In this document: positions 1 to 36,219 of the stretch, piece after piece
Position numbering within the stretch: position 1 is the first letter of the stretch
Layout: each line of letters starts with the position of its first letter
Origin: a virus
Strand: one strand, 5' to 3'
Length of the DNA: 64,000 nt
Virus record (IMG/VR): IMGVR_UViG_3300025671_000038
Position numbers and translations under genes: made by a program
The notes under the pieces: generated by a model
Told to the model about the DNA's origin: nothing
Seen by the model: only the letters and a program-made list of their open reading frames with translations
Databases searched by the model: none

Positions 1-223
1 CATTGCTCATATCTCCCATATCACCGACGATCAAACAAGAGTGATTCTCAAAGAGCTCATCAGTTTCCCAGACACTCCTGGATGATGGGTTACCCACACT
101 TTGACCTATTGCTATATTCCAAGCAGCAGATGCTAAATTCTTAGAACATTCAACATAATACTTAGCAAAGAAGTACTTGTCAGCATCTATTTGATTTCTC
201 GATTTAAATAATTCAGATTTCAT
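1..223 (-). CDS. RuBisCO-like protein (form IV/RLP), N-terminal 74 aa; runs off the window edge
   Basis: Hand translation from ATG at 223: MKSELFKSRNQIDADKYFFAKYYVECSKNLASAAWNIAIGQSVGNPSSRSVWETDELFENHSCLIVGDMGDMSN. The A-x-x-IA-x-x-QS-x-G segment matches the RbcL/RLP N-terminal domain. The start overlaps the cupin gene end. The catalytic domain lies outside the window. Confidence 0.72.
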   Translation of the reverse strand, partial: MKSELFKSRNQIDADKYFFAKYYVECSKNLASAAWNIAIGQSVGNPSSRSVWETDELFENHSCLIVGDMGDMSN

Positions 224-533
224 ACTTATCTCCCGGTTTAGAGGGTGTCTTAACTATAAAAACCTCGCAGTCTTCGAGGAAAACAGGATTAGCTATCTCG
301 TATTTCCTGATAACGAAAACATCACCAGCTTTGAGTATTTTGTCCTGTATAATCATTCTACCCTTGTGGAGGTAGTTTATTTCGTCAGCTTCTTTGTGAT
401 AGTGTGCTGGCCAATCCTCTCCTTTCTTATGCCTTTTAAAGCATATCTCAAATTGATCGGTTTTATAAGCGGAGGGAAGGAAGTCTCCAACGAACCATCC
501 ACCCTGGTAATCATCTATTTTAGATACTTCCAT
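213..533 (-). CDS. Cupin-fold protein
   Basis: GGWFVGDF start, His motif HYHKEADEINY, 106 aa all-beta pattern; overlaps both neighbours. Confidence 0.7.
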   Translation of the reverse strand: MEVSKIDDYQGGWFVGDFLPSAYKTDQFEICFKRHKKGEDWPAHYHKEADEINYLHKGRMIIQDKILKAGDVFVIRKYEIANPVFLEDCEVFIVKTPSKPGDKYEI

Positions 534-1266
534 TGGCTATTTTATTTTTATAAATCTCAAGATCTTCCGGGGTACCTATCGGGAAATGAAGGTTGAAGAA
601 ATATGGCAATATCTTTTTACCCCTCTTTATCAAATAGTTATATGAGGGAGCAACGTAAAACTCACTGTTATACCGGTCATTAGCTTCTATCATCTCCATC
701 GAGGATTCTACGAAATCGGACCCTCTCTTCCAGTAGTGCAATCCGTTAGTAGCTATATTTGATATAACTATTTTTTCCTTCACGTCACAAACTTCCCCGT
801 TTGGATCCAATTTGACGTAACTATTCTTTTTAGAGGAAGATAAAAAGCATCCTAAGAACCCATCACAAGCCGTATTTGAAGCAAACTTGGATAAAACATT
901 AAGATCATAGTCCAATATAATCTGATCACAGTTTACTATGATCAAAGGATCATTGGTATTAATGATAGACTGGGCCAGTAGAGCAGTACAGGCTGGTCCT
1001 TCTGTTAATTTCGGGGTGGAAATAACGTCATGTGAAATAGGCATATCGGATATGTGCCTCTTAAACTCATCGACAGATATGTGCTCCTCGTTGATCACGA
1101 ATATAAAATGGGCAGACTCATTGTGGAGGTTTCCGACTACGGTCCGTATCATAGAATCGTCGATGACCTTGATATAAGGTTTAATCTCGTTATACCCAGC
1201 ATCGGAAAATCTTTTTCCCATCCCGCCTAGGGGTATCAGTATATTAATCCTCCTTAAGTCTTCCAT
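520..1266 (-). CDS. Sugar-phosphate nucleotidyltransferase (NTP_transferase, GT-A fold)
   Basis: LIPLGGMGKRF...KP signature; TEGPACT, IVNCDQ, EK, NSEFY and GTPEDL motifs. Confidence 0.85.
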   Translation of the reverse strand: MEDLRRINILIPLGGMGKRFSDAGYNEIKPYIKVIDDSMIRTVVGNLHNESAHFIFVINEEHISVDEFKRHISDMPISHDVISTPKLTEGPACTALLAQSIINTNDPLIIVNCDQIILDYDLNVLSKFASNTACDGFLGCFLSSSKKNSYVKLDPNGEVCDVKEKIVISNIATNGLHYWKRGSDFVESSMEMIEANDRYNSEFYVAPSYNYLIKRGKKILPYFFNLHFPIGTPEDLEIYKNKIANGSI

Positions 1267-1912
1267 CTAAAAAAATACAAATCCAGGTAGCATCAATAAG
1301 ATCATCCAGAGGTTTATTTACATTTCCGCTGGGCGTTATCCATTCTCCCCTATTACTTTCAAGTATATTAGTGAAATAGCTCAGATTGGTTTCAGCTCTT
1401 TTACAATTAACTAGGGAATCATAGAGCTGATGTTTTTTTGCATTCCCTTTAATAGCGAATTTCTTAATGGAGGTCGGGGAAAAAACATAAAAATTCGAAC
1501 TACCCACCTCGTCAACTATTTTTTTTCTAAGTAGGGCAGTAGCCATAGAGATGTCAATTAGGGCATTACCATTGGATGCAAAACTTAAACCCTCCATAGC
1601 TATATAGATCTCGTCACCCTCTTGGGTGTGAGATATGACTGAATCCCAGAATCGGTCGACTAGGTCGGAAAAGTAATCAATCTTAAGCCTCTCCCTTTCG
1701 GAGTATTCCTCAGGCATTTTCTCTTTTCCCATAAACATGAGATCAAACCCATCCATTTCGGAGAGGAATGCGAATGGTTTTGCTTTAGATCTTTTTAGTG
1801 ATTCTTCTGTGCGATCACTTCGGGTAAGTGATCCCCATTTAAATTGATTATCCCTAAGCAAACAAAAAGCTGGCGAGTTCAGAGAAAAATCTATTCCGAT
1901 AAGAGTTCTCAA
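1244..1912 (-). CDS. RuvC-like Holliday junction resolvase (phage type)
   Basis: IGIDFSLNSPA (catalytic D), AMEGLSF (E), PTSIKKFA, DDLIDA (D/D); TTG start. Confidence 0.75.
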   Translation of the reverse strand: MRTLIGIDFSLNSPAFCLLRDNQFKWGSLTRSDRTEESLKRSKAKPFAFLSEMDGFDLMFMGKEKMPEEYSERERLKIDYFSDLVDRFWDSVISHTQEGDEIYIAMEGLSFASNGNALIDISMATALLRKKIVDEVGSSNFYVFSPTSIKKFAIKGNAKKHQLYDSLVNCKRAETNLSYFTNILESNRGEWITPSGNVNKPLDDLIDATWICIFLDGRLKED

Positions 1913-1939
1913 AATATTGAGTGTTTAAAAGTTTCACTC

Positions 1940-1947
1940 TATATATC
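1940..1947 (-). promoter_or_regulatory. Putative late promoter GATATATA upstream of the RuvC-like gene
   Basis: Exact octamer 27 nt before the TTG at 1912, just downstream of a terminator. Confidence 0.6.
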
Positions 1948-1952
1948 CTCAC

Positions 1953-1979
1953 AAAAAACCCCCGAATTAAGGGGGTTTT
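1953..1979 (-). terminator. Intrinsic terminator
   Basis: Minus strand AAAACCCCC-TTAATTC-GGGGG-TTTTTT, downstream of ORF 2001..2366. Confidence 0.75.
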
Positions 1980-2000
1980 ATAGATATGTACTTAATGTGA

Positions 2001-2366
2001 TTAAACCTTTACCAGTCTTTTAGAAACTAGCCCCGGAATCTCTATTTCAGAATCCCCTTTCGTAACCGCTTTCTCTATGTTATCCACTATCTTCTTGTCG
2101 ATAGCGCTTTCAAGTTCGGTAGGTTCCACTATTTTAACTTTTAAACTCTCTCCTGAAGGTTTGAGATCGACTACTTCAACTCTATTCCATTTTTTTCCAA
2201 ATGGATTTAGATAATTACCTGGATTAAATTCGGCCTCGAGTTGATATTCATTGCCGTTTAAAATTATATTGCCATTACTGCTCTTCTTCACTTCCAATTT
2301 TTCATTGATCTGTATAGAACCTTTAGAAGGGTTAGTAAAGGATTCGTAGGTAAGTATCGTTTCCAT
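2001..2366 (-). CDS. Hypothetical protein, probable internal head protein
   Basis: N-terminus METILTYESF...INE resembles the T4 capsid-targeting sequence; TAATG coupling to the upstream gene. Confidence 0.55.
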   Translation of the reverse strand: METILTYESFTNPSKGSIQINEKLEVKKSSNGNIILNGNEYQLEAEFNPGNYLNPFGKKWNRVEVVDLKPSGESLKVKIVEPTELESAIDKKIVDNIEKAVTKGDSEIEIPGLVSKRLVKV

Positions 2367-2614
2367 TAGTCCATTGATGGTTTAACTACATTTCCCTTCT
2401 TGCCAGTGTAATTATAGACATTAACAAGCTTGTCGTAGCATTTTTTCATCTGGTCATCTGTCAAGCAAGAGACCAGGTCATTAAGAACCCTTTGGTCGTT
2501 ACCTGAAGCAGCAACCAATAGATCTTTCATATGTTGCTTTAGGTCATCCTCGCCATACATGGGCTGACCATATTTCATTTCGTTTAACTGAGTTAGTTCA
2601 GAGAATTTTTTCAT
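2366..2614 (-). CDS. Small probable internal head protein (start revised to 2614)
   Basis: MKKFSELTQLNE N-terminus; GATATATA at 2636-2643 lies 21 nt upstream of this ATG, so the longer 2689 start is unlikely. Confidence 0.6.
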   Translation of the reverse strand: MKKFSELTQLNEMKYGQPMYGEDDLKQHMKDLLVAASGNDQRVLNDLVSCLTDDQMKKCYDKLVNVYNYTGKKGNVVKPSMD

Positions 2615-2635
2615 CTTCTTCGATTTTTTCTGTTT

Positions 2636-2643
2636 TATATATC
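2636..2643 (-). promoter_or_regulatory. Putative late promoter GATATATA
   Basis: Exact octamer immediately after the stop codon of 2644..3204. Confidence 0.6.
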
Positions 2644-3204
2644 TTACCTCTCCCTGCCAATTTCTAGCGATATATCCAAATAATTGCACTTAAAGCCTAC
2701 AGAGAACGTATAAACACTGGGAGCATTTTGGGTGTAATTGAGATTCAGGTTGTTCATCGATGTTAGGGTTACTTCCTTAAAAGTTACCGTAGTAACTATA
2801 TTCCCATCGTTATCAAGTATTCTTAATGGCAGGTTCTGAATAAAGACCTGCGGGTTTTTAAAATTAAGCTTGTCCAAAACCGTCTCCAGCATTATGAAGT
2901 AGTTTATGAAACCCTCAGATATGCGGAAAGAGACCTCAAATTCTCTGCTAAATAGGTCTTGTACTGGGGTCGCACTTTGGTAATTTACCCGCTTACCCAG
3001 ATTTCTTGTCTGCTCCACTAGATCCATACTCATCCCAGGGAATCCCACGGATTGAATGGAGCTATTCATGAAGGAAGTTATAGTGTCGTAAGGGGTAGGC
3101 TGTCTTTTAATGTAGTCTAGGTACTTCTCCTGTACGATATCAGGGAAAAATCCTCTTGGAAAGACGAAGTAAAAGCTATTAGCCCTTGCGTTTAACATGC
3201 TCAT
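2644..3204 (-). CDS. Tail-tube-fold protein (T4 gp3/gp19-like, possibly tail completion)
   Basis: IQSVGFPG, FEVSFRISEGFINY, LRILD..G, FSVGF beta pattern and 186 aa size fit T4-like tube/terminator proteins. Confidence 0.55.
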   Translation of the reverse strand: MSMLNARANSFYFVFPRGFFPDIVQEKYLDYIKRQPTPYDTITSFMNSSIQSVGFPGMSMDLVEQTRNLGKRVNYQSATPVQDLFSREFEVSFRISEGFINYFIMLETVLDKLNFKNPQVFIQNLPLRILDNDGNIVTTVTFKEVTLTSMNNLNLNYTQNAPSVYTFSVGFKCNYLDISLEIGRER

Positions 3205-3709
3205 AGTCTATCTTAACGTGGTTTATTTTATAGTTATTTCTTTCAGATTTCTCCAGAGCTTGACTAGTATCAAAATTAGAATACATGTAAAGACCCGGGA
3301 TCAATTCCTTGCAATCTCCTTCCACTATATATTCAAACCTATTATCACCATCAAAAAACTCAAGATCCGTGTAGTTGGTTATCTTTCTTCCTTTATAGAA
3401 CGAACCAGCATTTTCTCTCCATAGGATATCAACCAAAATTCCCATTTCCATCCCTATTGAAACCCCTGAATCTAGGAGGTCCTTTAACTCGGCATATCTG
3501 AATTTATTACCAGATAAGATCACGTCGATGTCTGTTGTATCGATATCAGTATCTAGAAAGTAGTTTGAGCAAAAAGCTCCACAAAGATACAGATCAACAG
3601 TAGGAGTGCCATTAAAGTCTATCCATGAAGAAATCCAATTATCGAAAAGATCCTTAGTTGGGGATTTAAAAGGTCCCTTATGAATAAACTCACCTCTTCT
3701 AAATTCCAA
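3179..3709 (-). CDS. Putative Pol-beta-superfamily nucleotidyltransferase
   Basis: LYLCGAF...TTDIDVIL (hG-x-DhDh) and a later VDIL strand; TTG start. Confidence 0.5.
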   Translation of the reverse strand: MEFRRGEFIHKGPFKSPTKDLFDNWISSWIDFNGTPTVDLYLCGAFCSNYFLDTDIDTTDIDVILSGNKFRYAELKDLLDSGVSIGMEMGILVDILWRENAGSFYKGRKITNYTDLEFFDGDNRFEYIVEGDCKELIPGLYMYSNFDTSQALEKSERNNYKINHVKIDYEHVKRKG

Positions 3710-3721
3710 AACGTATTGTGA

Positions 3722-6163
3722 TTAGCTTCTGCCACCGAAACCGAAATCAGGGTCAAAGTTTGCAGAACCGCTATCGCTACCGGATTGGTTAGCAGTAGAT
3801 CCATTGGAAGAAGCAGATCCGCCAGTAGCTCTTCCCGCACTGGTGTTTCCATAAGCAAGAACTAGCTCCATATCTCCACTTCCGAATATCCCGTCAACTG
3901 CATCTACAAAAAGATTTTTCGTAATTCCAACATAAAGCTTGTAGCCGGTTGAACTTGGGTCCAGGAAATATGCTATTATTTCCTGAGTAGTCCACCCGGT
4001 AGCTATTTTACCCTGCACGTCGGAGGAGATTGCAGATTTCAGCTGAACTGGGGTTAGCTTAGGTTGGTTATTTCGGTTTACATTACCAGCTTTTCTGCCT
4101 AATCCACTAGTTCCAGAAGTTCCGTTTTGTACTCCCGAAACCTGCCAGGAACTTTTTCCAACTCTTTTTGATACAGGTTTAGTCCTAGGTGAGGTTGGAG
4201 CTACCACCACTTCAGCTGCTACAGCTGTTTGAACTGGCTCAGTCTCTCCGTCCTTTAGCCAATTACCCCAGTAAAGAGTAGAAAAAGAATTTCCACCTAT
4301 TTTTGCAGTATTGACGGCTCTACTAGTATTAGAATCCCTTTTGGATGCAATTACAACATCACGGGAAGAATCTCTTAAACTAATAGCTTTCTTAGCTAGC
4401 AGAGATTTAACCTTATTAACCTTAGAAATTCCCCTCGTATCAACATTATCGCCATCGGGATCTGGCGGTTTATTAGTGATATAAAATCTTCGGTCTGTAA
4501 ACTGAAGGATCTGTGTAGAGATCGACTCATCCACTTTGAAAGCAAGCTCCCCCTTAGAAGGCTTTGCTATAGTAGCGTCAGCAATTGAAGGTGCATAAAC
4601 TTTTTTACCCTTGTTGTCTATGAAAACCATATTGTAAGTTCCAGAGGAGCTAAGGTCTATCTCCTGGGTTGTATTTCCTTGTCCTTTCTTAAAGAAGGAA
4701 AATTTGTAGTAGTTATCAAACGGGCTGATCTTTATATAAGCTTTGCCTACCCCATACGAAACTGAAGGTGTACTAGACTCATTGGTTTCAGTTAGTGTAG
4801 TTCCATTTACTTCCAGATTTGTCAGAGAAGTGTTTACTAGATTTCTATCAAAGAACACGTTAGAAAATTTGGTAATCTCTCTGGGCGATATTTGATTAAC
4901 CGGTACTGAAATATCAGTTTTACCTCCTAGCTTATTGTATATCTTCTGTTGCTGAGGTAAAACGGAAAGTTGCAGAGGAGCAATGGTAGTACCATATTTA
5001 CCAGGATCAGTTGAAGTATAAGTAGCAACCCTCATGGTTCTTGTCTGATTCTTACTGTTAATGAGTGTCATTGTATACCTCAATGAAAAGCTCGTAGCAA
5101 CATTAGAATACCTAACAATAGGTCTAAATAAATTCGGGACGTCGTATGCTGAAGTCTGAATACTAGTAAAATTAGATGTTTCAAGCCAAGCTGCACCAAC
5201 CTGCTCAAGAACCTCTATCCTATTCTCTATATAGTAGCTGTTTCCTATAGAATTCTGAAACAGTATGAAATCCTCTATAAAACCCCCATCATCTGTTCCG
5301 AAATATTCAAAGAAATCTCCAGTATCTGCTGGAGCAATATAAGCTCCTATGTTACTGAATGGATCAGTGGGTTCGAGAGATAATGCTGCTAAAAGTTGAG
5401 TACCATAGGTTTCATATCCGCTAACAATCGTAGTATCAGTTATGGAATAGGCACTTATTCTTAGAGGCTGAGAAGCTAAAAATCCTCTCCCACTTTTCGA
5501 AGTTTTAGCGGCAAGGGTTAAAGGTCGATTGGATACACTAGCAGCATTGTATTTATTGACCATATCTGAGAGTGAAGGTATCTTCACCTCGAAATACTTA
5601 TCATATATGTTAGCACCTATTGTTAAAGGACTAGGATTCAACGTATACTGCTGGGAATTACCCTTTGAGAGTTTAATCTGCGAAAAGGTAACATAAGATC
5701 CGTCTACATCCGGGTACTTAACATTTAGTATCAATCCATCCAGGTTATCCAAATTATACCCGGATAGGATGTGGTACCTCACGGAGTCATACACAACACT
5801 GAGATTCGATGGAAAAGATATAGGAAGATCAGCGGTGTTGGTAAGCTCAGATTTAAAGTCGTTATAAGGGACTATTAAATTAGGGTTTAGAGTTACGAAG
5901 GTCGTGGAATTAGTTTGCACCACACTATTGTTGGACGTGTTCTGTGTAATTGAAGCATTCTCGTCCAGATTGAATATTTGAACGTCATTAGAGGGCTGTC
6001 CGTCCGAATCTTCCAGTAAGCCATTTACGAGCTTATTATAACCCACTGTGGGGCTGCCAATATTGACAAAGTACTTCTCCGGGGTAGGTGGGCTGGCATA
6101 CATATATTCCATGACCAGATACGGGGAAAGTTGTACATATTTAGAGGTTGTCGTAAAAGCCAT
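3722..6163 (-). CDS. Large hypothetical virion structural protein (813 aa)
   Basis: Ser/Thr/Asn-rich beta protein in the tail operon; low-complexity Gly/Ser C-terminus. Confidence 0.5.
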   Translation of the reverse strand: MAFTTTSKYVQLSPYLVMEYMYASPPTPEKYFVNIGSPTVGYNKLVNGLLEDSDGQPSNDVQIFNLDENASITQNTSNNSVVQTNSTTFVTLNPNLIVPYNDFKSELTNTADLPISFPSNLSVVYDSVRYHILSGYNLDNLDGLILNVKYPDVDGSYVTFSQIKLSKGNSQQYTLNPSPLTIGANIYDKYFEVKIPSLSDMVNKYNAASVSNRPLTLAAKTSKSGRGFLASQPLRISAYSITDTTIVSGYETYGTQLLAALSLEPTDPFSNIGAYIAPADTGDFFEYFGTDDGGFIEDFILFQNSIGNSYYIENRIEVLEQVGAAWLETSNFTSIQTSAYDVPNLFRPIVRYSNVATSFSLRYTMTLINSKNQTRTMRVATYTSTDPGKYGTTIAPLQLSVLPQQQKIYNKLGGKTDISVPVNQISPREITKFSNVFFDRNLVNTSLTNLEVNGTTLTETNESSTPSVSYGVGKAYIKISPFDNYYKFSFFKKGQGNTTQEIDLSSSGTYNMVFIDNKGKKVYAPSIADATIAKPSKGELAFKVDESISTQILQFTDRRFYITNKPPDPDGDNVDTRGISKVNKVKSLLAKKAISLRDSSRDVVIASKRDSNTSRAVNTAKIGGNSFSTLYWGNWLKDGETEPVQTAVAAEVVVAPTSPRTKPVSKRVGKSSWQVSGVQNGTSGTSGLGRKAGNVNRNNQPKLTPVQLKSAISSDVQGKIATGWTTQEIIAYFLDPSSTGYKLYVGITKNLFVDAVDGIFGSGDMELVLAYGNTSAGRATGGSASSNGSTANQSGSDSGSANFDPDFGFGGRS

Positions 6164-6175
6164 TCTATCTATTTA

Positions 6176-6967
6176 TTATTTTCCAAACTGAAGCCACTTG
6201 GGGGAATAACTTAGTCCAATTCCTAGGAAAGGACCAACTGTATATCCGCCGTTGTCTAAAGAAATACCATAGCCTGCGGATACACCAACACCAAAAGTCC
6301 TTCTTGCCGACTTCAGAGCCCTTTTAGTCTCCGGGTCGTCTATCATGTTAAGAGCTTGTAATTCTCTGAACTTTAAACCAGGAAAATCAGTAGAGGCCCT
6401 GATGTATAACAAGCCATCATCAGGATTACTATATAAACCAGTGACCAGGTCTATTCTCTGCTCTATACTTAAAGAGGCATCCCCAGGAAATATAGTACTG
6501 TCGCTATCAAAAGTGTAAGGTATTGTACCGTCAATTAAGAGACGATTAGTACCGGGTAATACCGGGTTGTAAGAGAAAGCTATATAAGATGAGTCACCCT
6601 CGTTGTGATTCGTAGATGAGACCACGATAGTTGTGTCACGATAAACAATCTCCGTTTTAATTATGACTCCAGGTTTCCTTTTTCTCTCTAATTCTAGCCT
6701 TTTTATAAGATCTTCCTGCTCGTCAGAGAGCTCATTATATTTTAGTTTAAAAGCAGACCTCTCCGCTAAAGCACCGCTTAATCTAGTTTCCAAATGCCTA
6801 ACAGAATCCTGTTGGGCTAGTAAATTGCCCAAATTTCTATTAGCTTCCTCTCTTGCTCTTTCCGTTATGCCGCACTGTCTAAATAACAAGAGCATAAGCA
6901 ATATGGACAGCAGGATCGGGAAAATCCTTCCGGTTAAAAAAGATACTGTGTCCTTATAAAGTTTCAT
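6176..6967 (-). CDS. Membrane-anchored coiled-coil protein with Gly-rich beta C-terminus (spanin-like candidate)
   Basis: Hydrophobic N-segment FPILLSILLMLLLFRQC, coiled coil at about aa 35-95, C-terminal FGVGVSAGYG...GPFLGIGLSY. Confidence 0.5.
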   Translation of the reverse strand: MKLYKDTVSFLTGRIFPILLSILLMLLLFRQCGITERAREEANRNLGNLLAQQDSVRHLETRLSGALAERSAFKLKYNELSDEQEDLIKRLELERKRKPGVIIKTEIVYRDTTIVVSSTNHNEGDSSYIAFSYNPVLPGTNRLLIDGTIPYTFDSDSTIFPGDASLSIEQRIDLVTGLYSNPDDGLLYIRASTDFPGLKFRELQALNMIDDPETKRALKSARRTFGVGVSAGYGISLDNGGYTVGPFLGIGLSYSPKWLQFGK

Positions 6968-7199
6968 ATGTCATTTCGAAGGGATCGAGTCTTCCCTCAC
7001 CATATTTTTCGCCCAGAGAACTGATAAAATCCTGCTCTGAATCTCTCAAGTCTTCTAGTTCCCGGATTAGAGTACCAGCTTTCATGTTTAGCCTTTCCAT
7101 CTCCGACTGAACTTTCTCTATCTCGCCTCTAACTCTAGCAAATTCAGACTTCATTGATTGAGCTTTTTTAAGTTCTATTTTGGTTAATCTTTTTATCAT
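6954..7199 (-). CDS. Small coiled-coil hypothetical protein
   Basis: Heptad pattern, ends KYGEGRLDPFEMTYE; overlaps the downstream gene. Confidence 0.55.
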   Translation of the reverse strand: MIKRLTKIELKKAQSMKSEFARVRGEIEKVQSEMERLNMKAGTLIRELEDLRDSEQDFISSLGEKYGEGRLDPFEMTYETL

Positions 7200-7237
7200 A
7201 TTTATCCAAGTTTTAAAAAGTGTTCAAACGGTTAAAT

Positions 7238-8920
7238 CTATATTATTACACCACCACCTCCTCCAGGAACTGTTACAACTGAGTTGTAGCTAACCCATCC
7301 GGCTATATTAGCATTATTTCCATCGACACCTCCTGCAGTGCCCGCGGAAGTATCATTATTACCGAAAGCTTCATAGAAGAGAGAAGAATTACCATTGATA
7401 AAGGTGAGTCTTATTCTTTTGCACCCCAAAGCCCCAGGATTCATGCCAGAAGAATAGTTATCAGGTATTTCTACCAGATTATAGTTCGAGGATCCATTAA
7501 TATTTACTCTTATTCCACCAAAGGATCTGGTAGTGTCCTCGACAAGAAATTCTATTGTTCTATATTTATATAGTGACAGATTTAACCAGCTGTAGTTGTT
7601 ACCTACGGTAAGATAAAATCTGCCCTTACGATAATTACTAACTACAGAGACTGCGATAGCAGATGGTTTAATAATCACAATGTCCTCCGATGGAGTAACT
7701 GGAACATGGTAATATGTAACCCCGCTTCTAACAAAGGTGGAGGTGAACGGAGTGGATATCGTCTGTGTGTATCTAGTTAGGTTTCCTCCGGTTACACCCG
7801 AGGTATTAGAAGAAAAATTAGAGGATCCGATTTGGAATGAATCCCCGTTAGATCTAACTTCAAAGGACTGTCCCCTGTGTGCCGAGGCAGAATTAGAATC
7901 CCTGCCCAGCTGTAAAGCACTTCCATAACCAGAAGTTGTCCCATACCCTGCGGTATTAGATAATCCAATCCTCATGCCCTTACTTCCAGTAGAATTTGCG
8001 TTTATAAGTCCACTCGTTCCATAGGCACTTGTAATTCTATGGGAGAAACCGGTAGGACCTATAATAACAGGACCGGAAGTAAAATCAGCCCCGAAAATAG
8101 CACTACTTAACTGGAGATTAGATGAATTAACACTGAGATTTCCAGAAGAAATAATTTGGGAACTAGAAGCTGTTATTCCTATGTAGCTCTGGGATTTTAT
8201 ATTATTCGATCCAGCAGGAAATGAATCAATATTCCCGGTTACACCCAACGTTATAGATTTAGCAGCATATCTGGAAAAGCCCGGATTTTTCCAGACTAAG
8301 TCATAATCCGAGGTTGAAGAATTCTTCCAATAGAACCCTCCTATGTTACTTCTATCAAAAAATGTTTTATCGATCCCTAATATTGGACTGTAGGTATTAG
8401 AAACAGTACTTATCAACAACTTTGCAAAATTCGGATTAACGTCACCTGTAGTTCCGCTTAAGTCCGAAAGGGTCAAATACTTATCCCCGGGACTAGAATT
8501 TATAAGTACCGCATTATCCTCAGTAGATCCCCCTGGGCCCGATATTTGAGATAGCGATGCAAAAATACCCGTTGTCTCCAGAGTTTCTCCAGTATTAATC
8601 CAACCACCAGTAGCTGAAGAATATTTATACACATCCTGACCACCGGTATTTCCTATATCAATCCAGATATCACCAGGTTGGGATATTGATGCTGAGGGCT
8701 GCGAGGGGGAGAAGTACCAATTAGATGCTCTATCCCCTGTTGTACCTCGATCCCCGTCCAATCCAGCCTGACCTATTATGCCGGTAGCACCTATAGCTCC
8801 GTTAGGTCCTTGTTCCCCTATGGCATTAAAATGTACCTGGTTAAAATTATGGTTTACCTTAGTAATTATCTTATTCTTAGAATCTCCAGGTAAAATGTAT
8901 TTAGTATTGAATGTAGCCAT
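7238..8920 (-). CDS. Tail fibre protein with short collagen-like segment
   Basis: 10 Gly-X-Y triplets (aa 35-64); N-terminal ~200 aa paralogous to 8939..10426. Confidence 0.7.
   Translation of the reverse strand: MATFNTKYILPGDSKNKIITKVNHNFNQVHFNAIGEQGPNGAIGATGIIGQAGLDGDRGTTGDRASNWYFSPSQPSASISQPGDIWIDIGNTGGQDVYKYSSATGGWINTGETLETTGIFASLSQISGPGGSTEDNAVLINSSPGDKYLTLSDLSGTTGDVNPNFAKLLISTVSNTYSPILGIDKTFFDRSNIGGFYWKNSSTSDYDLVWKNPGFSRYAAKSITLGVTGNIDSFPAGSNNIKSQSYIGITASSSQIISSGNLSVNSSNLQLSSAIFGADFTSGPVIIGPTGFSHRITSAYGTSGLINANSTGSKGMRIGLSNTAGYGTTSGYGSALQLGRDSNSASAHRGQSFEVRSNGDSFQIGSSNFSSNTSGVTGGNLTRYTQTISTPFTSTFVRSGVTYYHVPVTPSEDIVIIKPSAIAVSVVSNYRKGRFYLTVGNNYSWLNLSLYKYRTIEFLVEDTTRSFGGIRVNINGSSNYNLVEIPDNYSSGMNPGALGCKRIRLTFINGNSSLFYEAFGNNDTSAGTAGGVDGNNANIAGWVSYNSVVTVPGGGGGVII
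8729..8818 (-). repeat. Collagen-like Gly-X-Y coding repeat
   Basis: GEQGPNGAIGATGIIGQAGLDGDRGTTGDR. Confidence 0.8.
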
Positions 8921-8938
8921 ATCCTATTATAGTAGAGA

Positions 8939-10426
8939 TTAAGTAAGAATTCCGGCATACCCTTTATCGGAGTTGTAATAAACTGTAATATCAGTAGCTG
9001 AAGATCCTTTAGCGATAATTAGATCCAGATACAAAACGGGGGTTGAAAATACGCGATCCGGAGTTCCACTGAAACTGGTACTACTAAGATAAAGACCATT
9101 TATTGGTTTTGAGTCGTCAACAGCAACTATTCTTACATTTATCGCAGTATTTGATTTAAGATACCCGCCCCAAGAGCCAGTCATAATGATACCAGAGGGG
9201 ATTCCTATATACCTCTGAGTTCCTGAAGCGGGGCTCAGATCTACCTCCACGAAATTACCATTCATGACTCTGTTGTATCCCATTGACCATATGTTCTGAT
9301 TTGTAGTACCATTGGCACTTCCATCGTAGTTACTAGAGGTACCAACGAATTGTGTCCTACCCTGGACCATTCTACTTCCTTCTATTCTTCCATCCGCTCT
9401 TACACCAAAATATCTAGTGCTACCTATGGTGAGATCCAGTAGGTAAGAGGAACTGGAAGCAGTACTCGTATCGATCACCACTCCACCTGCAGAATTTGAG
9501 GTATTCTCATTAATGGAAGAGAAAACATAATCCGTGGTATTAGAGGTAATCGATATAGGAACATTCGTTTCCATACTGCTACTTCCCATATTAAAATTGG
9601 AACTAGTGACAAAAAAATTGCTACCCAGTGAAAAAGAAACATCGCTCCCCGCGGTAATTTTTACCACCCCTCCGGAATTAAAATTCATGAATCCGCTGGA
9701 GGAAATATCTACATTTCCACTGGTACTAATCAGTTCTAAACCACCGCCGGCACTCAGTGTAAGTCCATCCTGAGGGACGGTAAAAAGCAAATCATAATTT
9801 GAACCCACCGGGGAAAGCCACCTAAATTGTGGGTGCCTGGTATAATCTGATGGATCACCAATTCCAGGGGCATCAGTTTTAGAAAATTCCAGGATGGGGT
9901 AATCGTTAGATCCATTGGTTGACAGAAGTAGTTTGGAATAATTGGGATTTGCCGTAGTGGTAGTGGAGATTGAATCACTTAAGACCATCGTAGTTTTTTC
10001 AGGAAAAGAACTACTGAATACGATCGCATCCTTATTTCCAGTCGGTCCAGATATTCCCTCTATTAACTTAAAAGACTCGGAAGCCTTAAGATTAGCTCCT
10101 GTATCAACCCATCCACTATCCCCATACTGGAAAATTTTGTTCCCCTGCGAGGGATTTACCCAATAGTCACCCACGAATATCGGATCCGAAGCGCCACCAA
10201 TTGGCTCAGTACTTTGCACTAACCACTGGGTTCCTCTTCTGCCTTCCTGTCCGGGATCTCCTTTAGGTCCAGCAGGCCCTACTGCACCCTGAGGTCCAGT
10301 TTTACCAATTTTTCCTTGCGGACCCCCACCATTAGCAACTATCGAATCAAAATTGTTATTAATCTTCCTAATTATATCTTCCTGTGAATCTCCCTGGGTA
10401 AGATTCGATATGTTTAAATTCGGCAT
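8939..10426 (-). CDS. Tail fibre protein with short collagen-like segment
   Basis: 11 Gly-X-Y triplets from aa 35; shares GD-x-W, GW-x-x-TG, ISGP-x-G and NPN-x-x-KLL motifs with 7238..8920. Confidence 0.7.
   Translation of the reverse strand: MPNLNISNLTQGDSQEDIIRKINNNFDSIVANGGGPQGKIGKTGPQGAVGPAGPKGDPGQEGRRGTQWLVQSTEPIGGASDPIFVGDYWVNPSQGNKIFQYGDSGWVDTGANLKASESFKLIEGISGPTGNKDAIVFSSSFPEKTTMVLSDSISTTTTANPNYSKLLLSTNGSNDYPILEFSKTDAPGIGDPSDYTRHPQFRWLSPVGSNYDLLFTVPQDGLTLSAGGGLELISTSGNVDISSSGFMNFNSGGVVKITAGSDVSFSLGSNFFVTSSNFNMGSSSMETNVPISITSNTTDYVFSSINENTSNSAGGVVIDTSTASSSSYLLDLTIGSTRYFGVRADGRIEGSRMVQGRTQFVGTSSNYDGSANGTTNQNIWSMGYNRVMNGNFVEVDLSPASGTQRYIGIPSGIIMTGSWGGYLKSNTAINVRIVAVDDSKPINGLYLSSTSFSGTPDRVFSTPVLYLDLIIAKGSSATDITVYYNSDKGYAGILT
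10226..10324 (-). repeat. Collagen-like Gly-X-Y coding repeat
   Basis: GPQGKIGKTGPQGAVGPAGPKGDPGQEGRRGTQ. Confidence 0.8.
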
Positions 10427-10446
10427 GCTAAAATCTTATCTTTGTT

Positions 10447-10454
10447 TATATATT
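10447..10454 (-). promoter_or_regulatory. Putative late promoter variant AATATATA
   Basis: One mismatch to GATATATA, 20 nt before the ATG at 10426, in a 44-nt intergenic gap. Confidence 0.5.
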
Positions 10455-10470
10455 CTGGATTTTCTGAGCA

Positions 10471-13400
10471 TTAAATTTTTTCAATCTGGAAGGTAAACGT
10501 TGTTGAATAATTGCTCCCTGCTTCCAACGGGAGCTCGAAAGTATACGAGAGGGAATTCCTCCTGGTTAATTTATAATTCTCATTTCTGTAATATCTATAT
10601 CTAACCCTATCCGGATTTATCAGATCACCTCTGAGTAATATTTCGGTTGGAGATAGATCCGTACCTGTCTTTTTAACGTAAAGATCGAAAGATATCCCCT
10701 GGTAGATCGGAGACACATTATTATCTATATAGGCCTTAATGTCATCCTCAATACTACTAGGATCACCAACTCCATACTCGGAAATCATATTATCGACAAA
10801 CACCTTGTCTATTCCAGAATTAAGAAGATATCTTCTAAGTATTCTATCTAACCTAATAGATCCTACAAGCTTATTGTTAAGCACGTCTTTCTGCCAGAAA
10901 ACCTCGACGTCCGGGTATATTCCCTCATCGACCGATTGAAGATCAACGCTACTAAAGGCTGTTCCAAGCTGTCCTATTCCCGTATTGGAATTGGCAGGAC
11001 CTATATTTTGTATCTCGGTTAATGCAGCCTTAGCGTTGTCATTTATCAACTGTATATCCGTTGTCCCGGTCGTTCTAGATATTTCTAAAGAAATAAATGT
11101 GTATGCAGTTACTAAATAAGGGGTCTGCATCATCTTTGAACCCAGAAAGGATTTACTTTCCCTCATAGACCTCGTACCCGCAACCGGGGTTTGTGTTGTC
11201 GAACTAGAGTATAAATTGTAATATCCAGGATCCCACGAGGACAAAAACACCGAAAAATCCTTTCTCGCTATCGGGGTTTGACCTATTAGAGGATAAACAG
11301 GACCACTCGGGAAACTATCAGACTGGCTCAATATATTGCTTCCCCTATCTACCTTGCTATAATTAAGGTTTTTGAGTTTTCCAAAGTCATTTTTTTCGGG
11401 TGCAAATGTGCAATTCCGGTAAGATAGATCAACAGAGGTATATCCAGAGACAGTGTCATTTTTATCGTTTTTATACCTAATAATTTTCTCGAATAAGGGC
11501 TCATAAGATCCAGCATACCTAAGTATATCAGCACCATATGATGCTCCACCATTGTTTATTGTATACCCAGTAGGTTGATTTTGACCTAGAGTTTGGGGAC
11601 CAGAATAAGATTTTACTGGTACAAGACCGGTACCTCTAGAAATCGCAGTTGGCTTCTCAAACTTCAAAAGAAAATCACTACTCCTAGTCTTGGTAGTCCC
11701 AGATCTCTCATCCCAGTAGTAGGTCGTATATGAAATATATGGGCTCTCTGAATTCACTCTCTCGGATATCTGAGAAAGAGAAATTCTTTTCATGATATAT
11801 TCCATGTTTTTGAAACCCCCTCCCAATTGAAAAACAGGATTTCCCCTATATGTGCTTTGTGGTCCAATCGGAACAGTAACCGGAGAGGAAAAAGCAAAAG
11901 GTATATCGAAGGTATAATTTGTACCAACCGGGCCAAAGGAAACCAGATTCTTAGACCTCCCTACAGGCCAGGGATATTTACTCGATATAGCAGGAACATC
12001 GAAACTACCGTTACCGGTTAGACCCACAGATCCAGTCCCTCCTACCGGATAAACCAGATTTATCTCTTCTCTTAAATCTGTGTCATAATCCTGATTAGGT
12101 ATAATATAGATAAATCCAGGATTAGTGTTCGGGGTTACAGAACTTGGAGAAACAACGGACAAATCCAGTGCAGAGCTTAGTTTTATATCACTCATATCAT
12201 ACAACCTCCGAGGTGTCGGAGTAGCGCCTGTAGATCCAGTTGTTCCAACCTGCAAATCTTTCTTCTTGTCTACAAGGCTGTATAACAATGTATAGTCAAC
12301 AAATGCACCAGTAGGCCCGACATCACCAAGTGGCAATGCCCGGTAATCATTTATTACTATGCTACAAACAAAAAGAATTGACTTCTGTTGAGTATTCTCT
12401 ATAAACTCGTAGGATACCGGTGCTTGTATAGTGTCCGGAGTTTCATCGACCACCCTTAAAATGGCAGAAAATTTATAGTCCTCAAATCCTCTATAGTTAG
12501 CTATAAATTTCTCGGCGTCCGTAGATGGATCATCGATATTACTCTTCCTCCTCAGTGACATTTTAACGCCCCTAAATAGAGTTTCGTAATAACCAGTGGA
12601 TGAGTTATATCTGAAAGGTGTAAAAAGCTCCTTTGTGAAATTAGACCCAGAATTGTAAGGGTAAGGGTAATCAAGAGTATCTACAGTAAAGAACGAAGAG
12701 AAGTAAAGAGAATCCCCAGGATCAGCGCTTTTTGCTTTATCGAGATCAATTTCCCCGGGCAAATAGTTCCTCTGATTATTTATCTTATCCACCGGATAAC
12801 CAGGAGGAATTCCCTCCAAGAGCATCCATTCATGTGTAAGATACTTCGGATCCGGAATCTCCCTCTCAAAACTCGGAGAAAAATTAGTGGGGCTAAATGC
12901 AGGGGAAGCGTTCAGCCTGTAGGAATTACCTCTAGCGTCGGTCCCACCAAAATACCCCCATTTATTAATATAGGGAACTATCTTAGATCTATTAGCCCTA
13001 CGTTGTGTATAATTTTCTCTAAGGTAAGAATATTCACTATCTAGTTTCCCGTAATTAAATAAGGCTCCCTTGTCCTCCACTGGTGGAACCTGCTCTTCAG
13101 AATCGATGGATTGTATTCCATAAAATCCATCAAATGAATCTAGGTTTTCCTCAGCTTTAATTGAATTAACATCATAGATAACACTAGGATTTTCCCAGTA
13201 TATCTGTGTGAAAATAGCAGGGACTACAATTGACGGAGTTCCATTAACAGCAACACCCTCGTCATAGAAAATACTAACAGATGATCCCACAAAGGCAGCT
13301 CCCGGCCCGAGAACCCTCTCAGAAGGCAAACCTATGTCAACTCTAATAGAACCTCGTCTAACCAGATATTTGACATTCTCTTTTATCTGTCCAGAACGGT

Positions 13401-22788: not shown

Positions 22789-23574
22789 ATGCTTGGAAAT
22801 AAACCCTCCATCAGGAGAGTATATGATTTGAAGACAAAAAAGTCCGAATTAAGACTGGTTGAACCCAATCAGGCCAAGCTTATTCCAGTTATTATGTGCA
22901 CTTGGATGAGAATAGAGGGATTCAAAAGAGTAGTAGAAAACCTAAACCGCCAGTCACACCGGAGCTTCAAACTTTTTGTGTGGAATAATAACCCAGACAT
23001 TACTGAAGAAATTTTATCCATACTATCCGAAAAAGCTTCTTTTAGCTCAGACGTATTCCAAAGCGAGGTTAACATAGGTGGATTTGGGAGGTTCTATTTT
23101 GCTAATTTTCTATACGGTGATCCAAGGTTAGAAAGATATTGCATCTTTATAGATGACGATCAGACATTTGAGGAAGATATGATTAAAAAATTCTCACAGG
23201 AAGCTTCACCGAAAACCATACTCTCCCAGTGGTCTTGGAAATTTAATTCAACCAGGTACTTCGGAAGAGAAAACCGGGTGCTGGTAGAGCCGCATAATGA
23301 GGTTCACCACTGTGGAACCGGAGGGATGGTAGCAGATATGGAGATATTTATGGAAAGGGATCTTTATGAATGTCCAAAGAAATATTGGTTCATAGAAGAT
23401 CTCTGGCTTTCATACTTTTCAAGTCATGTGAAAGGATATAAACTACTGAAGAGCTCCACGATATTTCAAAACGGATCGGATGAGCATAATCTAAACGACA
23501 TAGTAAAGGAACAAAAAGAAACCATGCTAGCTGAACTAATAGAAGATCTAGGATGGGATATACTCAAAAAATAA
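22789..23574 (+). CDS. Glycosyltransferase family 2 (GT-A fold)
   Basis: VIMCTW, FVWNN, NIGGFGRF, IFIDDD (DxD), IEDLWLS. Confidence 0.8.
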   Translation: MLGNKPSIRRVYDLKTKKSELRLVEPNQAKLIPVIMCTWMRIEGFKRVVENLNRQSHRSFKLFVWNNNPDITEEILSILSEKASFSSDVFQSEVNIGGFGRFYFANFLYGDPRLERYCIFIDDDQTFEEDMIKKFSQEASPKTILSQWSWKFNSTRYFGRENRVLVEPHNEVHHCGTGGMVADMEIFMERDLYECPKKYWFIEDLWLSYFSSHVKGYKLLKSSTIFQNGSDEHNLNDIVKEQKETMLAELIEDLGWDILKK

Positions 23575-34488: not shown

Positions 34489-36219
34489 TTATCTGTTGGA
34501 AGCTATTAGCTTTGATTTAGTCTCGGAATTAAGCTCATTGAGGAAATTCTTTGGATTAACCGAAGAAATGGAGATATTTAGTGCCGAAGGTTTCCCAGGA
34601 ACTATTCCTTCCTGATACTCCACACCGTTTCTATCTTCCCATCCTCCCCTCATAAGAACTAGCTCACCTCTTTTTATGATAATATCACCGAAGTCGTCGA
34701 GACCTATCTGTTTGTTCTTTTGAGCAGCACTCGCATTTTGTAAGTTATCAACGGTTCTATGATAATTCTCATTCTGTTCACCTATGAAATAGAAGGAAAC
34801 CGAATCTATTCCCTCTATCGATTCTAGTATCGCTATTATATCGGATTTAGGAATCCTATCTCTTCTCTTATTGTTAAGCATATACTCGGAAATAGAAGTT
34901 CTGACCTTGTCCTTTATGACCTCAGGATCATAGCCCTCAAAAATCGACATAACCACGTTTCCAACAAACCTACTGATCTCAGGTTGTATGATTTTTACAA
35001 CCGTGGTCGCTATCATTCTACCGGAATCCTCAATGAGATTCAGGATGGAAAGCTTTTGAGAGTTAGTGAGTAAGAAACTAGTTTCTGGAATATCGAAATA
35101 ATCCTGGTTGCTAGTCATGTTAATAGTTACATCAGGAACCAAGAAAATATAAACTACGTTATCATCATCCAAGTAATCATCATCGAAAGTTGAGAAAGCC
35201 TGTATCTGAGAAAAGATATTGAATTTCTGTAGGTATATCTCATAATTTTCAGCATTAGCAAACACGAAAGCCCGACTGGTTTTAGGTGCTACCAATCTGG
35301 TAACTTCTATAGGTTCGGGATCAGATCCGAAAGAAGGATCTAGTACGCCGGTCAATTTTAAATAGTTATCAAGGTTAACAGTACTTCCGAAGAGATCTTC
35401 CCCGCTATCCATAAACTTATACGTAAGAACCTGATCAGGCCTGCTCTGAAGATTTCCATTAAATCCAGATGTCTGCAGGTATTCCACCCTTATTGTGGCT
35501 CCCTGTTGTGGAATCTTACCAAAGTTTGAATTACCGAAATAGATGTCTATTCCCTCCTGTATACCGCTCTTAACTAGATATCCCTCCTTGTTAAGAGGTA
35601 TATCATAGAGGGATTCATACCTTTCCCATTTATTGTCGTTGACATAGACATCAACATAAAATTGGTCTATCAGAGCACCAGCTTTCGAAGGAAGATTAAA
35701 ACTCTGTAATGCCCTACCAGTACCTGTAAACGTATTAGAAGCGAAGGATCCTTGAACAATCTTAAAATTAAAAGAAGCTGTCCGGTTAAGTGGTACTTTC
35801 ACGGAAGGAGCTCCGAGTAATATTGAATATGGAAGTCCGTTTTGTATACATTGAATTCTCGGGGTTCCGCTTAATACTACTGCTCCACCACCAACATCAG
35901 ACTCTCTAAGATTCCACGTTAAAGCAATCTCTCCTTGTGCAGCCATTCCTCTTGAAGGATCATGACCAGCGATTCTAGCTAAACTTTTTATTGAGTAGTT
36001 TCTAGTTGCTTCCTGTATATTTAATTCAGTTATCGAATCCTCTATGAAGTACAAAATCATCTGAGAGAGGTTTTCCAACACAAACAATATCTGCCCCCAA
36101 GCAGAAGCAACTGTGAAAACGTTGCGGGATTGGTTGTACGTCCTTTGCAAGAATTGATAAGAGTCGTTTAGTAGACCTCCAATCAGAATGTTGTTCTTCT
36201 TAAAAATATTTTCTGCCAT
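34489..36219 (-). CDS. Baseplate wedge subunit (T4 gp6 / baseplate J-like)
   Basis: SIKSLARIAGHDPSR, FTGTG...QSF, DIYFGNSNFGKIP, IRVEYLQTSG..GN, GSDPEPIE, DYEI-like ENYEI motif. Confidence 0.8.
   Translation of the reverse strand: MAENIFKKNNILIGGLLNDSYQFLQRTYNQSRNVFTVASAWGQILFVLENLSQMILYFIEDSITELNIQEATRNYSIKSLARIAGHDPSRGMAAQGEIALTWNLRESDVGGGAVVLSGTPRIQCIQNGLPYSILLGAPSVKVPLNRTASFNFKIVQGSFASNTFTGTGRALQSFNLPSKAGALIDQFYVDVYVNDNKWERYESLYDIPLNKEGYLVKSGIQEGIDIYFGNSNFGKIPQQGATIRVEYLQTSGFNGNLQSRPDQVLTYKFMDSGEDLFGSTVNLDNYLKLTGVLDPSFGSDPEPIEVTRLVAPKTSRAFVFANAENYEIYLQKFNIFSQIQAFSTFDDDYLDDDNVVYIFLVPDVTINMTSNQDYFDIPETSFLLTNSQKLSILNLIEDSGRMIATTVVKIIQPEISRFVGNVVMSIFEGYDPEVIKDKVRTSISEYMLNNKRRDRIPKSDIIAILESIEGIDSVSFYFIGEQNENYHRTVDNLQNASAAQKNKQIGLDDFGDIIIKRGELVLMRGGWEDRNGVEYQEGIVPGKPSALNISISSVNPKNFLNELNSETKSKLIASNR

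What the first reader, a model, noticed from the sequence alone, without database searches (positions are those of the whole stretch)
1..223. Unannotated RuBisCO-like protein (RLP) at the window edge of a phage genome
The ORF track misses this ORF. It opens at ATG 223 and reads ...LASAAWNIAIGQSVGNPSSRSVWETDELFENHSC... (seen). This resembles the RbcL/form IV N-terminal domain. Characterised RLPs are enolases, isomerases or transcarboxylases on phospho-sugar-like substrates (established). I know of no functional characterisation of a viral RLP. Only 74 aa are visible, so the call rests on N-terminal similarity.
Basis: partly seen in the sequence, partly recalled or inferred. Interest (0 to 1): 0.85.

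Follow-up and report, generated by a model that had tools for sequence, protein, structure and literature searches.

The report
Phage RuBisCO-like enzyme in sugar-activation cassette
The window edge holds the start of an intact relative of RuBisCO that lacks the CO2-fixing residues, carried by a large marine phage; in phages, SAR11 bacteria and tiny archaea it always travels with (and is once fused to) a sugar-activating enzyme, so it most likely reshapes a sugar phosphate for an unusual surface sugar, a role never shown for this enzyme family.

Summary
Window 2..223 (-) is the first 74 codons of a 396-aa ORF that continues off the window in the same 116-kb virus record.

- **Family:** the full protein hits both RuBisCO domains and folds as a RuBisCO large subunit. 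It lacks five carboxylase residues and scores far below the MtnW, OiaX and form III cut-offs.
- **Clade:** it belongs to a sharply separated clade with an identical active-site signature in phages, SAR11, CPR bacteria, Verrucomicrobia and DPANN archaea. This is the 'IV-like' phage/Beckwithbacteria clade reported by Jaffe et al. 2019, so a phage RLP is not new. Its function is unknown.
- **Added here:** the RLP sits in a conserved cassette with an NTP-transferase, a small cupin, a mini-GDPD and DUF7796. The NTP-transferase is adjacent in 16/16 viral and 18/20 cellular loci and is fused to the RLP in one protein. The cassette lies in glycan-biosynthesis islands.
- **Best reading (about 0.6):** an enolase/isomerase supplying a rearranged sugar or ketol phosphate for nucleotide activation.

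Earlier notes of this scan reached the same reading on other genomes.

The parts
1..223 (-). First 74 codons of the 396-aa RuBisCO-like protein. ATG at 223; the rest lies off the window, at G000:C1:63997-64964.
   Evidence: The start overlaps the cupin stop by 11 nt (213-223).
213..533 (-). Small (106 aa) metal-binding cupin with an invariant HxH...E motif; cassette partner.
   Evidence: Weak Cupin_2 hit and phrog_24762 at 1.2e-30. The profile hits small cupins in PDB. Present in 13/16 viral and 9/20 cellular loci. A homolog lies in the deep-branch locus L045 (hhalign 99.9%).
520..1266 (-). 248-aa sugar-phosphate nucleotidyltransferase (NTPt), the universal partner of the RLP.
   Evidence: PF00483 at 5e-11. 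The profile hits PDB 4EVW, an NDP-sugar pyrophosphorylase, at 4.9e-28. Adjacent to the RLP in 16/16 viral and 18/20 cellular loci. Fused to the RLP in P0124. Overlaps the cupin start by 14 nt.
1244..1912 (-). RuvC-like resolvase. This is the upstream boundary of the cassette and not part of it.
   Evidence: phrog_159 at 5.5e-14. Shared only with the closest relatives L003/L004.

Best explanation
The ORF encodes a non-carboxylating RuBisCO-like protein of the 'IV-like' phage/CPR clade.

Shown:
- It has the RuBisCO fold.
- It keeps the Mg2+/carbamate triad (K184, D186, E187 = K201, D203, E204), the KPK pair (K158, K160), H301 (= H327) and the glycine phosphate cradle (S333, G335, G357, G358).
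- It has lost the residues needed for CO2 addition and C-C cleavage: E60->G40, N123->G106, H294->Q267, R295->K268, K334->Y308 in a shortened loop 6.

Inferred:
- It binds a phosphorylated 2-keto sugar on Mg2+, removes a proton next to the carbonyl to form an enediolate, and reprotonates it to give an isomer or epimer (or a related rearranged ketol phosphate).
- The co-translated nucleotidyltransferase then couples that product to an NMP, giving an NDP-activated sugar or ketol.
- The small cupin (optional, absent in SAR11) adds an isomerisation or epimerisation step.
- The mini-GDPD (p147) and the DUF7796 protein (p261) handle the phosphodiester or transfer step.
- In most carriers SDR epimerase/dehydratases, methyltransferases and glycosyltransferases tailor the unit and attach it to a surface glycan. 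For a phage that glycan would be on the infected cell or on the virion.
For: - Family and fold.
- Residue pattern. The 19-site signature is identical in phage, SAR11, CPR, Verrucomicrobia and DPANN copies at 43-100% overall identity. Mean column identity in the clade is 76%, which indicates a selected enzyme.
- Link to the NTPt: adjacent in all 16 IMG/VR loci although the flanking genes differ and the gene order shuffles; adjacent in 18 of 20 cellular loci; fused in one chain in P0124 (RLP part 52% identical; NTPt part 36% identical, 2e-44); the four-gene set is already present in the deepest branch.
- Start/stop overlaps of 14, 11 and 4 nt join the genes.
- Glycan context: SDR epimerase in 7 viral loci, CmcI/FkbM methyltransferases, GT1/GT2, UDP-Glc dehydrogenase and UDP-GlcNAc 2-epimerase. 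In SAR11: heptosyltransferase-like, PseF-like and GDP-fucose-synthase-like genes.
- Same slot, other enzymes: NTPt and p147 homologs in cultured cyanophages sit in nucleotide-sugar/glycosyltransferase clusters, where the RLP position is taken by other ketose-phosphate enzymes: a fused DHBP synthase, a class II aldolase, SIS and HAD.
- p147 is a pruned GDPD fold with the catalytic H/R/E/D/H set.
Against: - No substrate, product or activity has been measured for any member.
- No kinase or mutase is in the cassette, so the route from a host metabolite to a substrate for the transferase is unexplained.
- In this phage the cassette lies in the replication module. Its two GT2 genes are 23-26 kb away and no SDR was found in the 42%-complete record.
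- Order of action (RLP before or after nucleotidyl transfer) is not fixed by the data.
- The glycan context is guilt by association.
- The tree is a FastTree with local supports only.
Confidence: 0.6

Rival explanations
1. The chemistry is the same but the destination differs: the activated sugar is used to hypermodify phage DNA, as in glucosyl- or arabinosyl-hydroxymethylcytosine phages, and not a surface glycan.
For: In this phage and its close relatives L003/L004 the cassette is inserted between RuvC and SSB/primase/helicase, in the replication module.
Against: No thymidylate-synthase-family (hydroxymethylase) gene was found in the record, though it is only 42% complete. The same cassette with an identical active site occurs in SAR11, CPR, Verrucomicrobia and DPANN chromosomes beside LPS or glycan genes. 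In other phages it lies among GT1/GT2 and sugar methyltransferases.
Confidence: 0.1
2. The order is reversed, or the role is salvage. Either the NTPt first makes an NDP-ketose and the RLP rearranges the nucleotide-bound sugar, or the pair breaks down or reroutes a host sugar nucleotide or phosphate instead of building a new one.
For: The fusion P0124 has the RLP at the N-terminus and the NTPt at the C-terminus, which does not fix the order of steps. The sister lineage P0136 sits in a catabolic operon with an ABC transporter, an FGGY kinase, a transketolase and an aldolase.
Against: The retained glycine cradle is the site that binds a terminal phosphate monoester in known family members (established knowledge of RuBisCO/RLP structures). 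The clade's contexts are biosynthetic, with glycosyltransferases and methyltransferases, and not catabolic.
Confidence: 0.15
3. It is a methionine/MTA-salvage RLP, either an MtnW-type DK-MTP-1-P enolase or an R. rubrum-type MTRu-1-P isomerase working with a cupin methylsulfurylase, carried as an auxiliary sulfur or SAM by-product gene.
For: Among the best solved relatives are DK-MTP-1-P enolases (2zvi at 2.7e-35, 2oek). An RLP-cupin pairing is known from the R. rubrum MTA-isoprenoid shunt (my recollection of Erb et al. 2012; not re-read here).
Against: It scores 129 and 157 bits against MtnW cut-offs of 513.6 and 409. The MtnW base position, which is Lys in the MSWK-type clade, is Gly106 here. 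No mtn genes are adjacent, the cupin is dispensable in SAR11, and the universal partner is a nucleotidyltransferase.
Confidence: 0.05
4. It is a true CO2-fixing RuBisCO (form III-like, nucleotide-salvage pathway).
For: The best NCBIfam and Foldseek matches are type III enzymes. K175, K177, K201, D203 and E204 are kept.
Against: E60, N123, H294, R295 and K334 are replaced and loop 6 is shortened, invariantly in the clade. It scores 181.7 bits against a cut-off of 497. It falls outside the bona fide group in the tree. No PRK, AMP phosphorylase or R15P isomerase is adjacent.
Confidence: 0.02

Closest known systems
'Form IV-like' RuBisCO-related clade of phages and Beckwithbacteria (Jaffe, Castelle, Dupont & Banfield 2019, PMC6389311)
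   Same: A divergent RLP on large myovirus-type phage contigs from IMG/VR that groups with Beckwithbacteria and apart from the other RLPs. It keeps part of the form IV residue set.
   Different: That paper left the function open. In the passages I read it does not describe the conserved NTP-transferase/cupin/mini-GDPD cassette, the RLP-NTPt fusion or the SAR11/DPANN carriers, but I did not read the whole paper or its supplement.
DK-MTP-1-P enolase MtnW/YkrW (B. subtilis 2ZVI, G. kaustophilus 2OEK)
   Same: A non-carboxylating RLP with the same fold (TM about 0.81). It keeps carbamyl-Lys/Asp/Glu and the single phosphate cradle. Its chemistry is enolisation next to a phosphorylated carbon.
   Different: About 26% identity and below the family cut-offs. 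The catalytic Lys at the N123 position is absent here. H294 is Gln here but His in MtnW-type sequences. The gene context is different.
Type III RuBisCO (T. kodakarensis 3A12; 8DHT)
   Same: The best sequence and structure match (3.6e-37; TMq 0.86). KPK and K-x-D-E are conserved.
   Different: Five carboxylation or cleavage residues are lost and loop 6 is about 5 residues shorter. No AMP-pathway partners are present.
Cyanophage nucleotide-sugar clusters (S-SM2, S-CAM9, S-SKS1)
   Same: They hold homologous NTPt (26-41% identity), p147 (37-46%), a DUF7796-type protein and a small cupin in one same-strand cluster with glycosyltransferases.
   Different: They have no RLP. The slot is filled by a fused DHBP synthase (S-SKS1), a fused HAD phosphatase (S-CAM9), or a class II aldolase with SIS isomerases (S-SM2).
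Apiose-pathway RLPs OiaX/OiaT (Carter et al. 2018, cited in PMC6389311)
   Same: RLPs acting on small keto sugar-acid phosphates. NCBIfam OiaX gives a full-length alignment.
   Different: 141.7 bits against a cut-off of 700. Those enzymes are catabolic and paired with kinases, not nucleotidyltransferases.

Membership tests
RuBisCO large-subunit superfamily | N-terminal alpha+beta domain plus C-terminal TIM-barrel domain (PF02788 + PF00016) | tested here: met
   PF00016 at 116.3 bits (cut-off 30.1) and PF02788 at 21.8 bits (cut-off 20.7). AF2 model pLDDT 89.1; TMq 0.86 to 3A12.
RuBisCO large-subunit superfamily | Carbamylatable Lys and Mg2+ ligands (K201, D203, E204) and K175/K177 | tested here: met
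   K184-E-D186-E187 and K158-P-K160, invariant in 22 clade members.
Bona fide RuBisCO (forms I-III) | Carboxylation and cleavage residues E60, N123, H294, R295 and K334 on an intact loop 6 | tested here: not met
   G40, G106, Q267, K268 and Y308. Loop 6 region is 29 residues against 34 or more in bona fide-like representatives.
Bona fide RuBisCO (forms I-III) | NCBIfam equivalog cut-off (rubisco_III 497.45; form II 489) | tested here: not met
   181.7 and 91.7 bits.
MtnW DK-MTP-1-P enolase | NCBIfam equivalog cut-off (TIGR03332 513.6; NF007095 409) | tested here: not met
   129 and 156.9 bits.
MtnW DK-MTP-1-P enolase | Catalytic Lys at the position of RuBisCO N123 | tested here: not met
   Gly106 here, followed by Gln107. 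The MSWK/LSWK-signature clade has Lys.
OiaX 3-oxo-isoapionate-4-P decarboxylase | NCBIfam equivalog cut-off 700 | tested here: not met
   141.7 bits.
R. rubrum-type (DeepYkr) MTRu-1-P 1,3-isomerase | Clustering with the R. rubrum RLP and sharing its active-site set | not tested
   No reference sequence for this type could be fetched with the tools.
'IV-like' phage/Beckwithbacteria RLP clade (Jaffe 2019) | Forms one clade with phage and Beckwithbacteria sequences, separate from all other RLPs and RuBisCOs | tested here: met
   A 49-row clade with 100* local support contains the window protein, 9 IMG/VR phage copies and a Beckwithbacteria MAG copy, L029.
'IV-like' phage/Beckwithbacteria RLP clade (Jaffe 2019) | [quoted passage not shown] | tested here: met
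   Signature QNPGQIKKKDEQKDHSGGG over the alignment columns that I chose for 19 RuBisCO sites; the first column was mis-set and is residue 61 rather than E60. It is shared by 34 of 142 rows and by no row outside the clade.

The most novel reading that the evidence does not exclude
The RLP catalyses a reaction new to the RuBisCO superfamily that directly makes the nucleotidyltransferase's substrate from a common host ketose phosphate, without a kinase or mutase. One option is conversion of a 1-phospho-2-ketose, through its C1=C2 enol phosphate, into a glycosyl 1-phosphate. Another is a skeletal rearrangement to a short ketol phosphate like the product of DHBP synthase. If so, the cassette defines an undescribed activated sugar or polyol made by SAR11, CPR/DPANN cells and the large phages and giant viruses that infect plankton.
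Probability: 0.2. Interest if true: 0.85.

Novelty: new member of a known kind. Interest (0 to 1): 0.6.

Why it matters
RuBisCO-like proteins are a classic case of functional divergence, and every assigned function so far is catabolic or salvage. This clade is abundant in ocean metagenomes (2,612 homologs at E<=0.001). It has an invariant active site and is wired, and once fused, to a nucleotidyltransferase in glycan islands of phages, SAR11 and ultra-small bacteria and archaea. That gives a concrete and cheap experiment: purify two to four small proteins, screen ketose phosphates, and look for a new NDP species. The result could add a biosynthetic function to the superfamily. It could also identify a surface sugar relevant to phage-host recognition in some of the most abundant marine bacteria.

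Tried and rejected
- Pfam on the 74-aa window fragment alone gave no hit.
- tblastn of the RLP against 50,697 GenBank phages gave no match, and PHROGs gave no family.
- Complex prediction on RLP + NTPt gave no verdict (median 0.21, mark 0.32). This is not evidence either way.
- hhalign of the cassette cupin against the GPI-type cupin beside the sister-lineage RLP showed no detectable homology (probability 1.5%). I dropped the idea that the RLP-cupin pair is older than the clade.
- The P0124 fusion contig is only 2.5 kb and its DNA could not be fetched, so its context is unknown.
- Thymidylate-synthase family and T4 glucosyltransferase searches in the phage record found nothing. The second search rang in no control genome, and the record is only 42% complete.
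- No SDR epimerase was found in this record.
- Literature searches for a function of this clade, or for RLP together with nucleotidyltransferase, found none.
- My first residue map put E60 at Q41. The alignment check moved it to G40.
- Named reference RLPs (R. rubrum, C. tepidum) could not be brought into the tree, so the other groups are labelled only by motif.

Full report
**Observation.** On the minus strand an ORF opens at ATG 223 and runs off the window at base 2. The window is the reverse complement of the first 63,996 bases of a 116,154-bp IMG/VR-type virus record that CheckV estimates as 42% complete. Fetching across the edge (L002 = G000:C1:60000-76000) shows the frame continues to 396 aa, at L002:3775-4965. 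The 74-aa piece alone matches no Pfam family. The full protein matches PF00016 (2.1e-33) and PF02788 (2.3e-4), both above their cut-offs, and 99 solved RuBisCO/RLP chains. The record is a tailed phage. It has baseplate wedge and tail-fibre PHROGs in the window and RuvC, gp32-like SSB, primase and helicase next to the ORF. Its helicase is nearest to a 462-kb uncultured phage and to the Lak megaphages.

**What the protein is.** An AlphaFold2 model built on 22 relatives is confident (pLDDT 89.1, pTM 0.89). It superposes on type III RuBisCO at TMq 0.86 and on solved RLPs at 0.78-0.84, with 23-26% identity.
- *Residues kept* (query = RuBisCO numbering): K158/K160 = K175/K177; K184, D186, E187 = K201, D203, E204; H301 = H327; S333 = S379; G335 = G381; G357/G358 = G403/G404.
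- *Residues replaced:* E60->G40, T65/W66->N45/P46, N123->G106, H294->Q267, R295->K268, H298->D271 and K334->Y308, in a loop 6 about five residues shorter.
- All of these positions are invariant in the 22-sequence clade alignment, which has 76% mean column identity.
- It scores far below every NCBIfam equivalog cut-off: rubisco_III 181.7/497, MtnW 157/409 and 129/514, OiaX 142/700.

It is therefore an RLP that can still bind Mg2+ on a carbamate and one phosphate. It lacks the CO2-addition and cleavage apparatus and also the MtnW base.

**Where it belongs.** The protein has 2,612 homologs at E<=0.001 in the 90% clusters. The top 120 are 63-86% identical and many come from ocean metagenomes. At 50% clustering there are 1,415. 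A FastTree of 142 sequences (representatives, phage copies and cellular copies) puts the window protein in a 49-row clade that is split from all other representatives with 100* local support. Inside it, nine phage copies form a starred subclade, and another phage copy groups with the Patescibacteria and Beckwithbacteria copies. At the alignment columns that I chose for 19 RuBisCO sites (the first was mis-set and is residue 61, not E60), the residues are identical in phage, Pelagibacter (including a complete chromosome), Beckwithbacteria, Saccharibacteria, Verrucomicrobiae and Woesearchaeota copies. Their overall identity runs from 43% to 100%. This matches the 'IV-like' phage/Beckwithbacteria clade described by Jaffe et al. 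2019, who reported about 80 phage sequences and left the function open (PMC6389311). No GenBank phage among 50,697 records and no PHROG contains it. I found no later paper that assigns it a function.

**The cassette.** In this phage five genes are joined by overlaps or tiny gaps:
- NTP-transferase, window 520-1266.
- Cupin, window 213-533.
- RLP.
- A 147-aa protein, p147, off the window at G000:C1:64971-65414.
- A 261-aa DUF7796-type protein, p261, at G000:C1:65411-66196.

How the partners are distributed:
- *16 IMG/VR loci:* the NTP-transferase is always adjacent. p147 is present in all 13 loci that extend far enough. The cupin is in 13. The flanking phage genes are shared only with the two closest relatives, and the gene order shuffles.
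- *20 cellular loci:* the NTP-transferase is adjacent in 18, p147 in 12 and the cupin in 9. None of the SAR11 loci has the cupin.
- *Fusion:* one representative, P0124 (667 aa), is a single-chain RLP-NTP_transferase fusion. Its RLP part is 52% identical to the query, and its transferase part is the cassette type (36% identity, 2e-44).
- *Deepest branch:* the deepest sampled branch of the clade already carries p147-RLP-cupin-NTPt.

The RLP and the nucleotidyltransferase are thus a functional pair by three independent lines: conserved adjacency across domains, fusion, and probable translational coupling.

**What the partners are.**
- *NTPt:* its profile hits PDB 4EVW, an NDP-sugar pyrophosphorylase, at 4.9e-28, and RmlA, GMPP and HddC-type enzymes more weakly.
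- *p147:* it has invariant HRGN / EN / ExD / GHD motifs. Its profile matches only the catalytic N-terminus of GDPDs. Its model (pLDDT 97) aligns over 140 of 147 residues to GDPD/PLD-type barrels at Z up to 10.3, including the teichoic-acid-cleaving domain of phage K gp155. It is a pruned GDPD.
- *Cupin:* it has the HxH...E metal motif and resembles small cupin isomerases and dioxygenases only generically.
- *p261:* it belongs to a nearly virus-only DUF7796 family. It is distantly related to the S-SM2 'capsular polysaccharide biosynthesis protein', which also follows a p147 homolog.

**Context.**
- *Other phages:* the cassette sits in same-strand islands with an SDR sugar epimerase/dehydratase (7 loci), CmcI-like and FkbM methyltransferases, GT1/GT2 glycosyltransferases, UDP-glucose/GDP-mannose dehydrogenase and UDP-GlcNAc 2-epimerase.
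- *SAR11:* the neighbours are a heptosyltransferase-like GT9, a PseF-like cytidylyltransferase, a GDP-fucose-synthase-like SDR and a further glycosyltransferase.
- *Cultured Synechococcus myophages:* they carry homologous NTPt and p147 in nucleotide-sugar/glycosyltransferase clusters without an RLP. There the NTPt is fused to a genuine DHBP synthase (S-SKS1, PF00926 5e-65) or to a HAD phosphatase (S-CAM9), or it sits beside a class II aldolase and SIS isomerases (S-SM2).

The RLP therefore occupies a slot that other phages fill with different enzymes that transform ketose phosphates.

**Mechanism proposed.** Shown: the fold, the metal/carbamate site, one phosphate site, the loss of the carboxylase residues, and the linkage to the NTPt and to glycan genes. 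Inferred: the RLP enolises a phosphorylated 2-keto sugar and releases an isomer, epimer or rearranged ketol phosphate. The NTPt activates that product with a nucleotide. The cupin, p147 and DUF7796 protein modify it or transfer it, ending on a surface glycan. I put this at about 0.6.

Open points are the substrate, the order of the RLP and NTPt steps, the absence of a kinase or mutase, and the destination of the sugar in this particular phage. Here the cassette lies in the replication module, two GT2 genes are distant, and no SDR, thymidylate-synthase-type or T4-glucosyltransferase gene was found in the incomplete record. The sister lineage P0136 (41% identity) sits in a catabolic sugar operon. 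This shows the wider group works on sugar phosphates, but it also warns that roles may differ between branches.

**Novelty and verdict.** The existence of phage RLPs is published, so this is a new member of a known but uncharacterised clade. The cassette, the fusion and the breadth of carriers give it a testable functional hypothesis that I did not find in the literature. Earlier notes of this scan reached the same reading on other genomes, and I re-derived the key points independently here.

Noticed in passing
P0178 (583 aa): A natural fusion of a TIR domain (PF13676, 3.3e-13) with a divergent RLP that is 31% identical to the query and falls outside the clade. A TIR-RLP fusion hints at a defence or NAD-related role for another RLP branch.
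   Followed up: no
P0152, P0158 (726 and 742 aa); P0258 (1265 aa): IF-2B-family (isomerase) + RuBisCO fusions with a bona fide-like residue signature, which fits a fused AMP/pentose-bisphosphate pathway. P0258 is a RuBisCO + APH-type kinase fusion.
   Followed up: partly
L022:5001-6428 (Synechococcus phage S-SKS1, NC_020851): The gene annotated as DHBP synthase is really an NTP-transferase + DHBP-synthase fusion (PF00926 5e-65 at residues 259-447). This suggests nucleotide activation of a 4-carbon ketol phosphate in a cultured phage.
   Followed up: partly
L043 (NCBI GCA_023488455.1 contig, 1-13287): The sister-lineage RLP P0136 lies in an uncharacterised sugar-catabolic operon: ABC transporter, glycoside hydrolase, GntR, FGGY kinase, split transketolase, cupin-type GPI, RLP and class II FBP aldolase.
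   Followed up: partly
L032 (contig binned as a Saprospirales MAG, 4654-8453): It carries the full five-gene cassette, with an NTPt 69% and a p261 50% identical to the window's. That is closer than most phage copies. It may be a mis-binned phage contig or a clue to the host lineage.
   Followed up: no
L002:12452-14377 (G000:C1:72451-74376, off the window): A 641-aa protein whose C-terminal third is a cytidylyltransferase-like (HxGH) domain (phrog_3041/395). The N-terminal 460 aa were not assigned to any family.
   Followed up: no
window 10471-33954 (-): A run of very large ORFs (1844, 1188, 736, 1331, 541 and 1350 aa) next to tail-fibre (8939-10426) and baseplate-wedge (34489-36219) genes. Most large ORFs that I scanned have no PHROG match.
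   Followed up: partly
window about 22888-23208 (+), and G000:C1:90406-90756: Two GT2-family glycosyltransferase genes lie far from the cassette. They are possible users of its product.
   Followed up: no
L002:4972-5415 (p147) and relatives: A 147-aa protein reproduces almost the whole GDPD barrel topology in about 60% of the usual length (140 residues aligned to a 226-residue GDPD, Z 10.3). It is a minimal PLC-like phosphodiesterase fold found almost only in viruses.
   Followed up: partly
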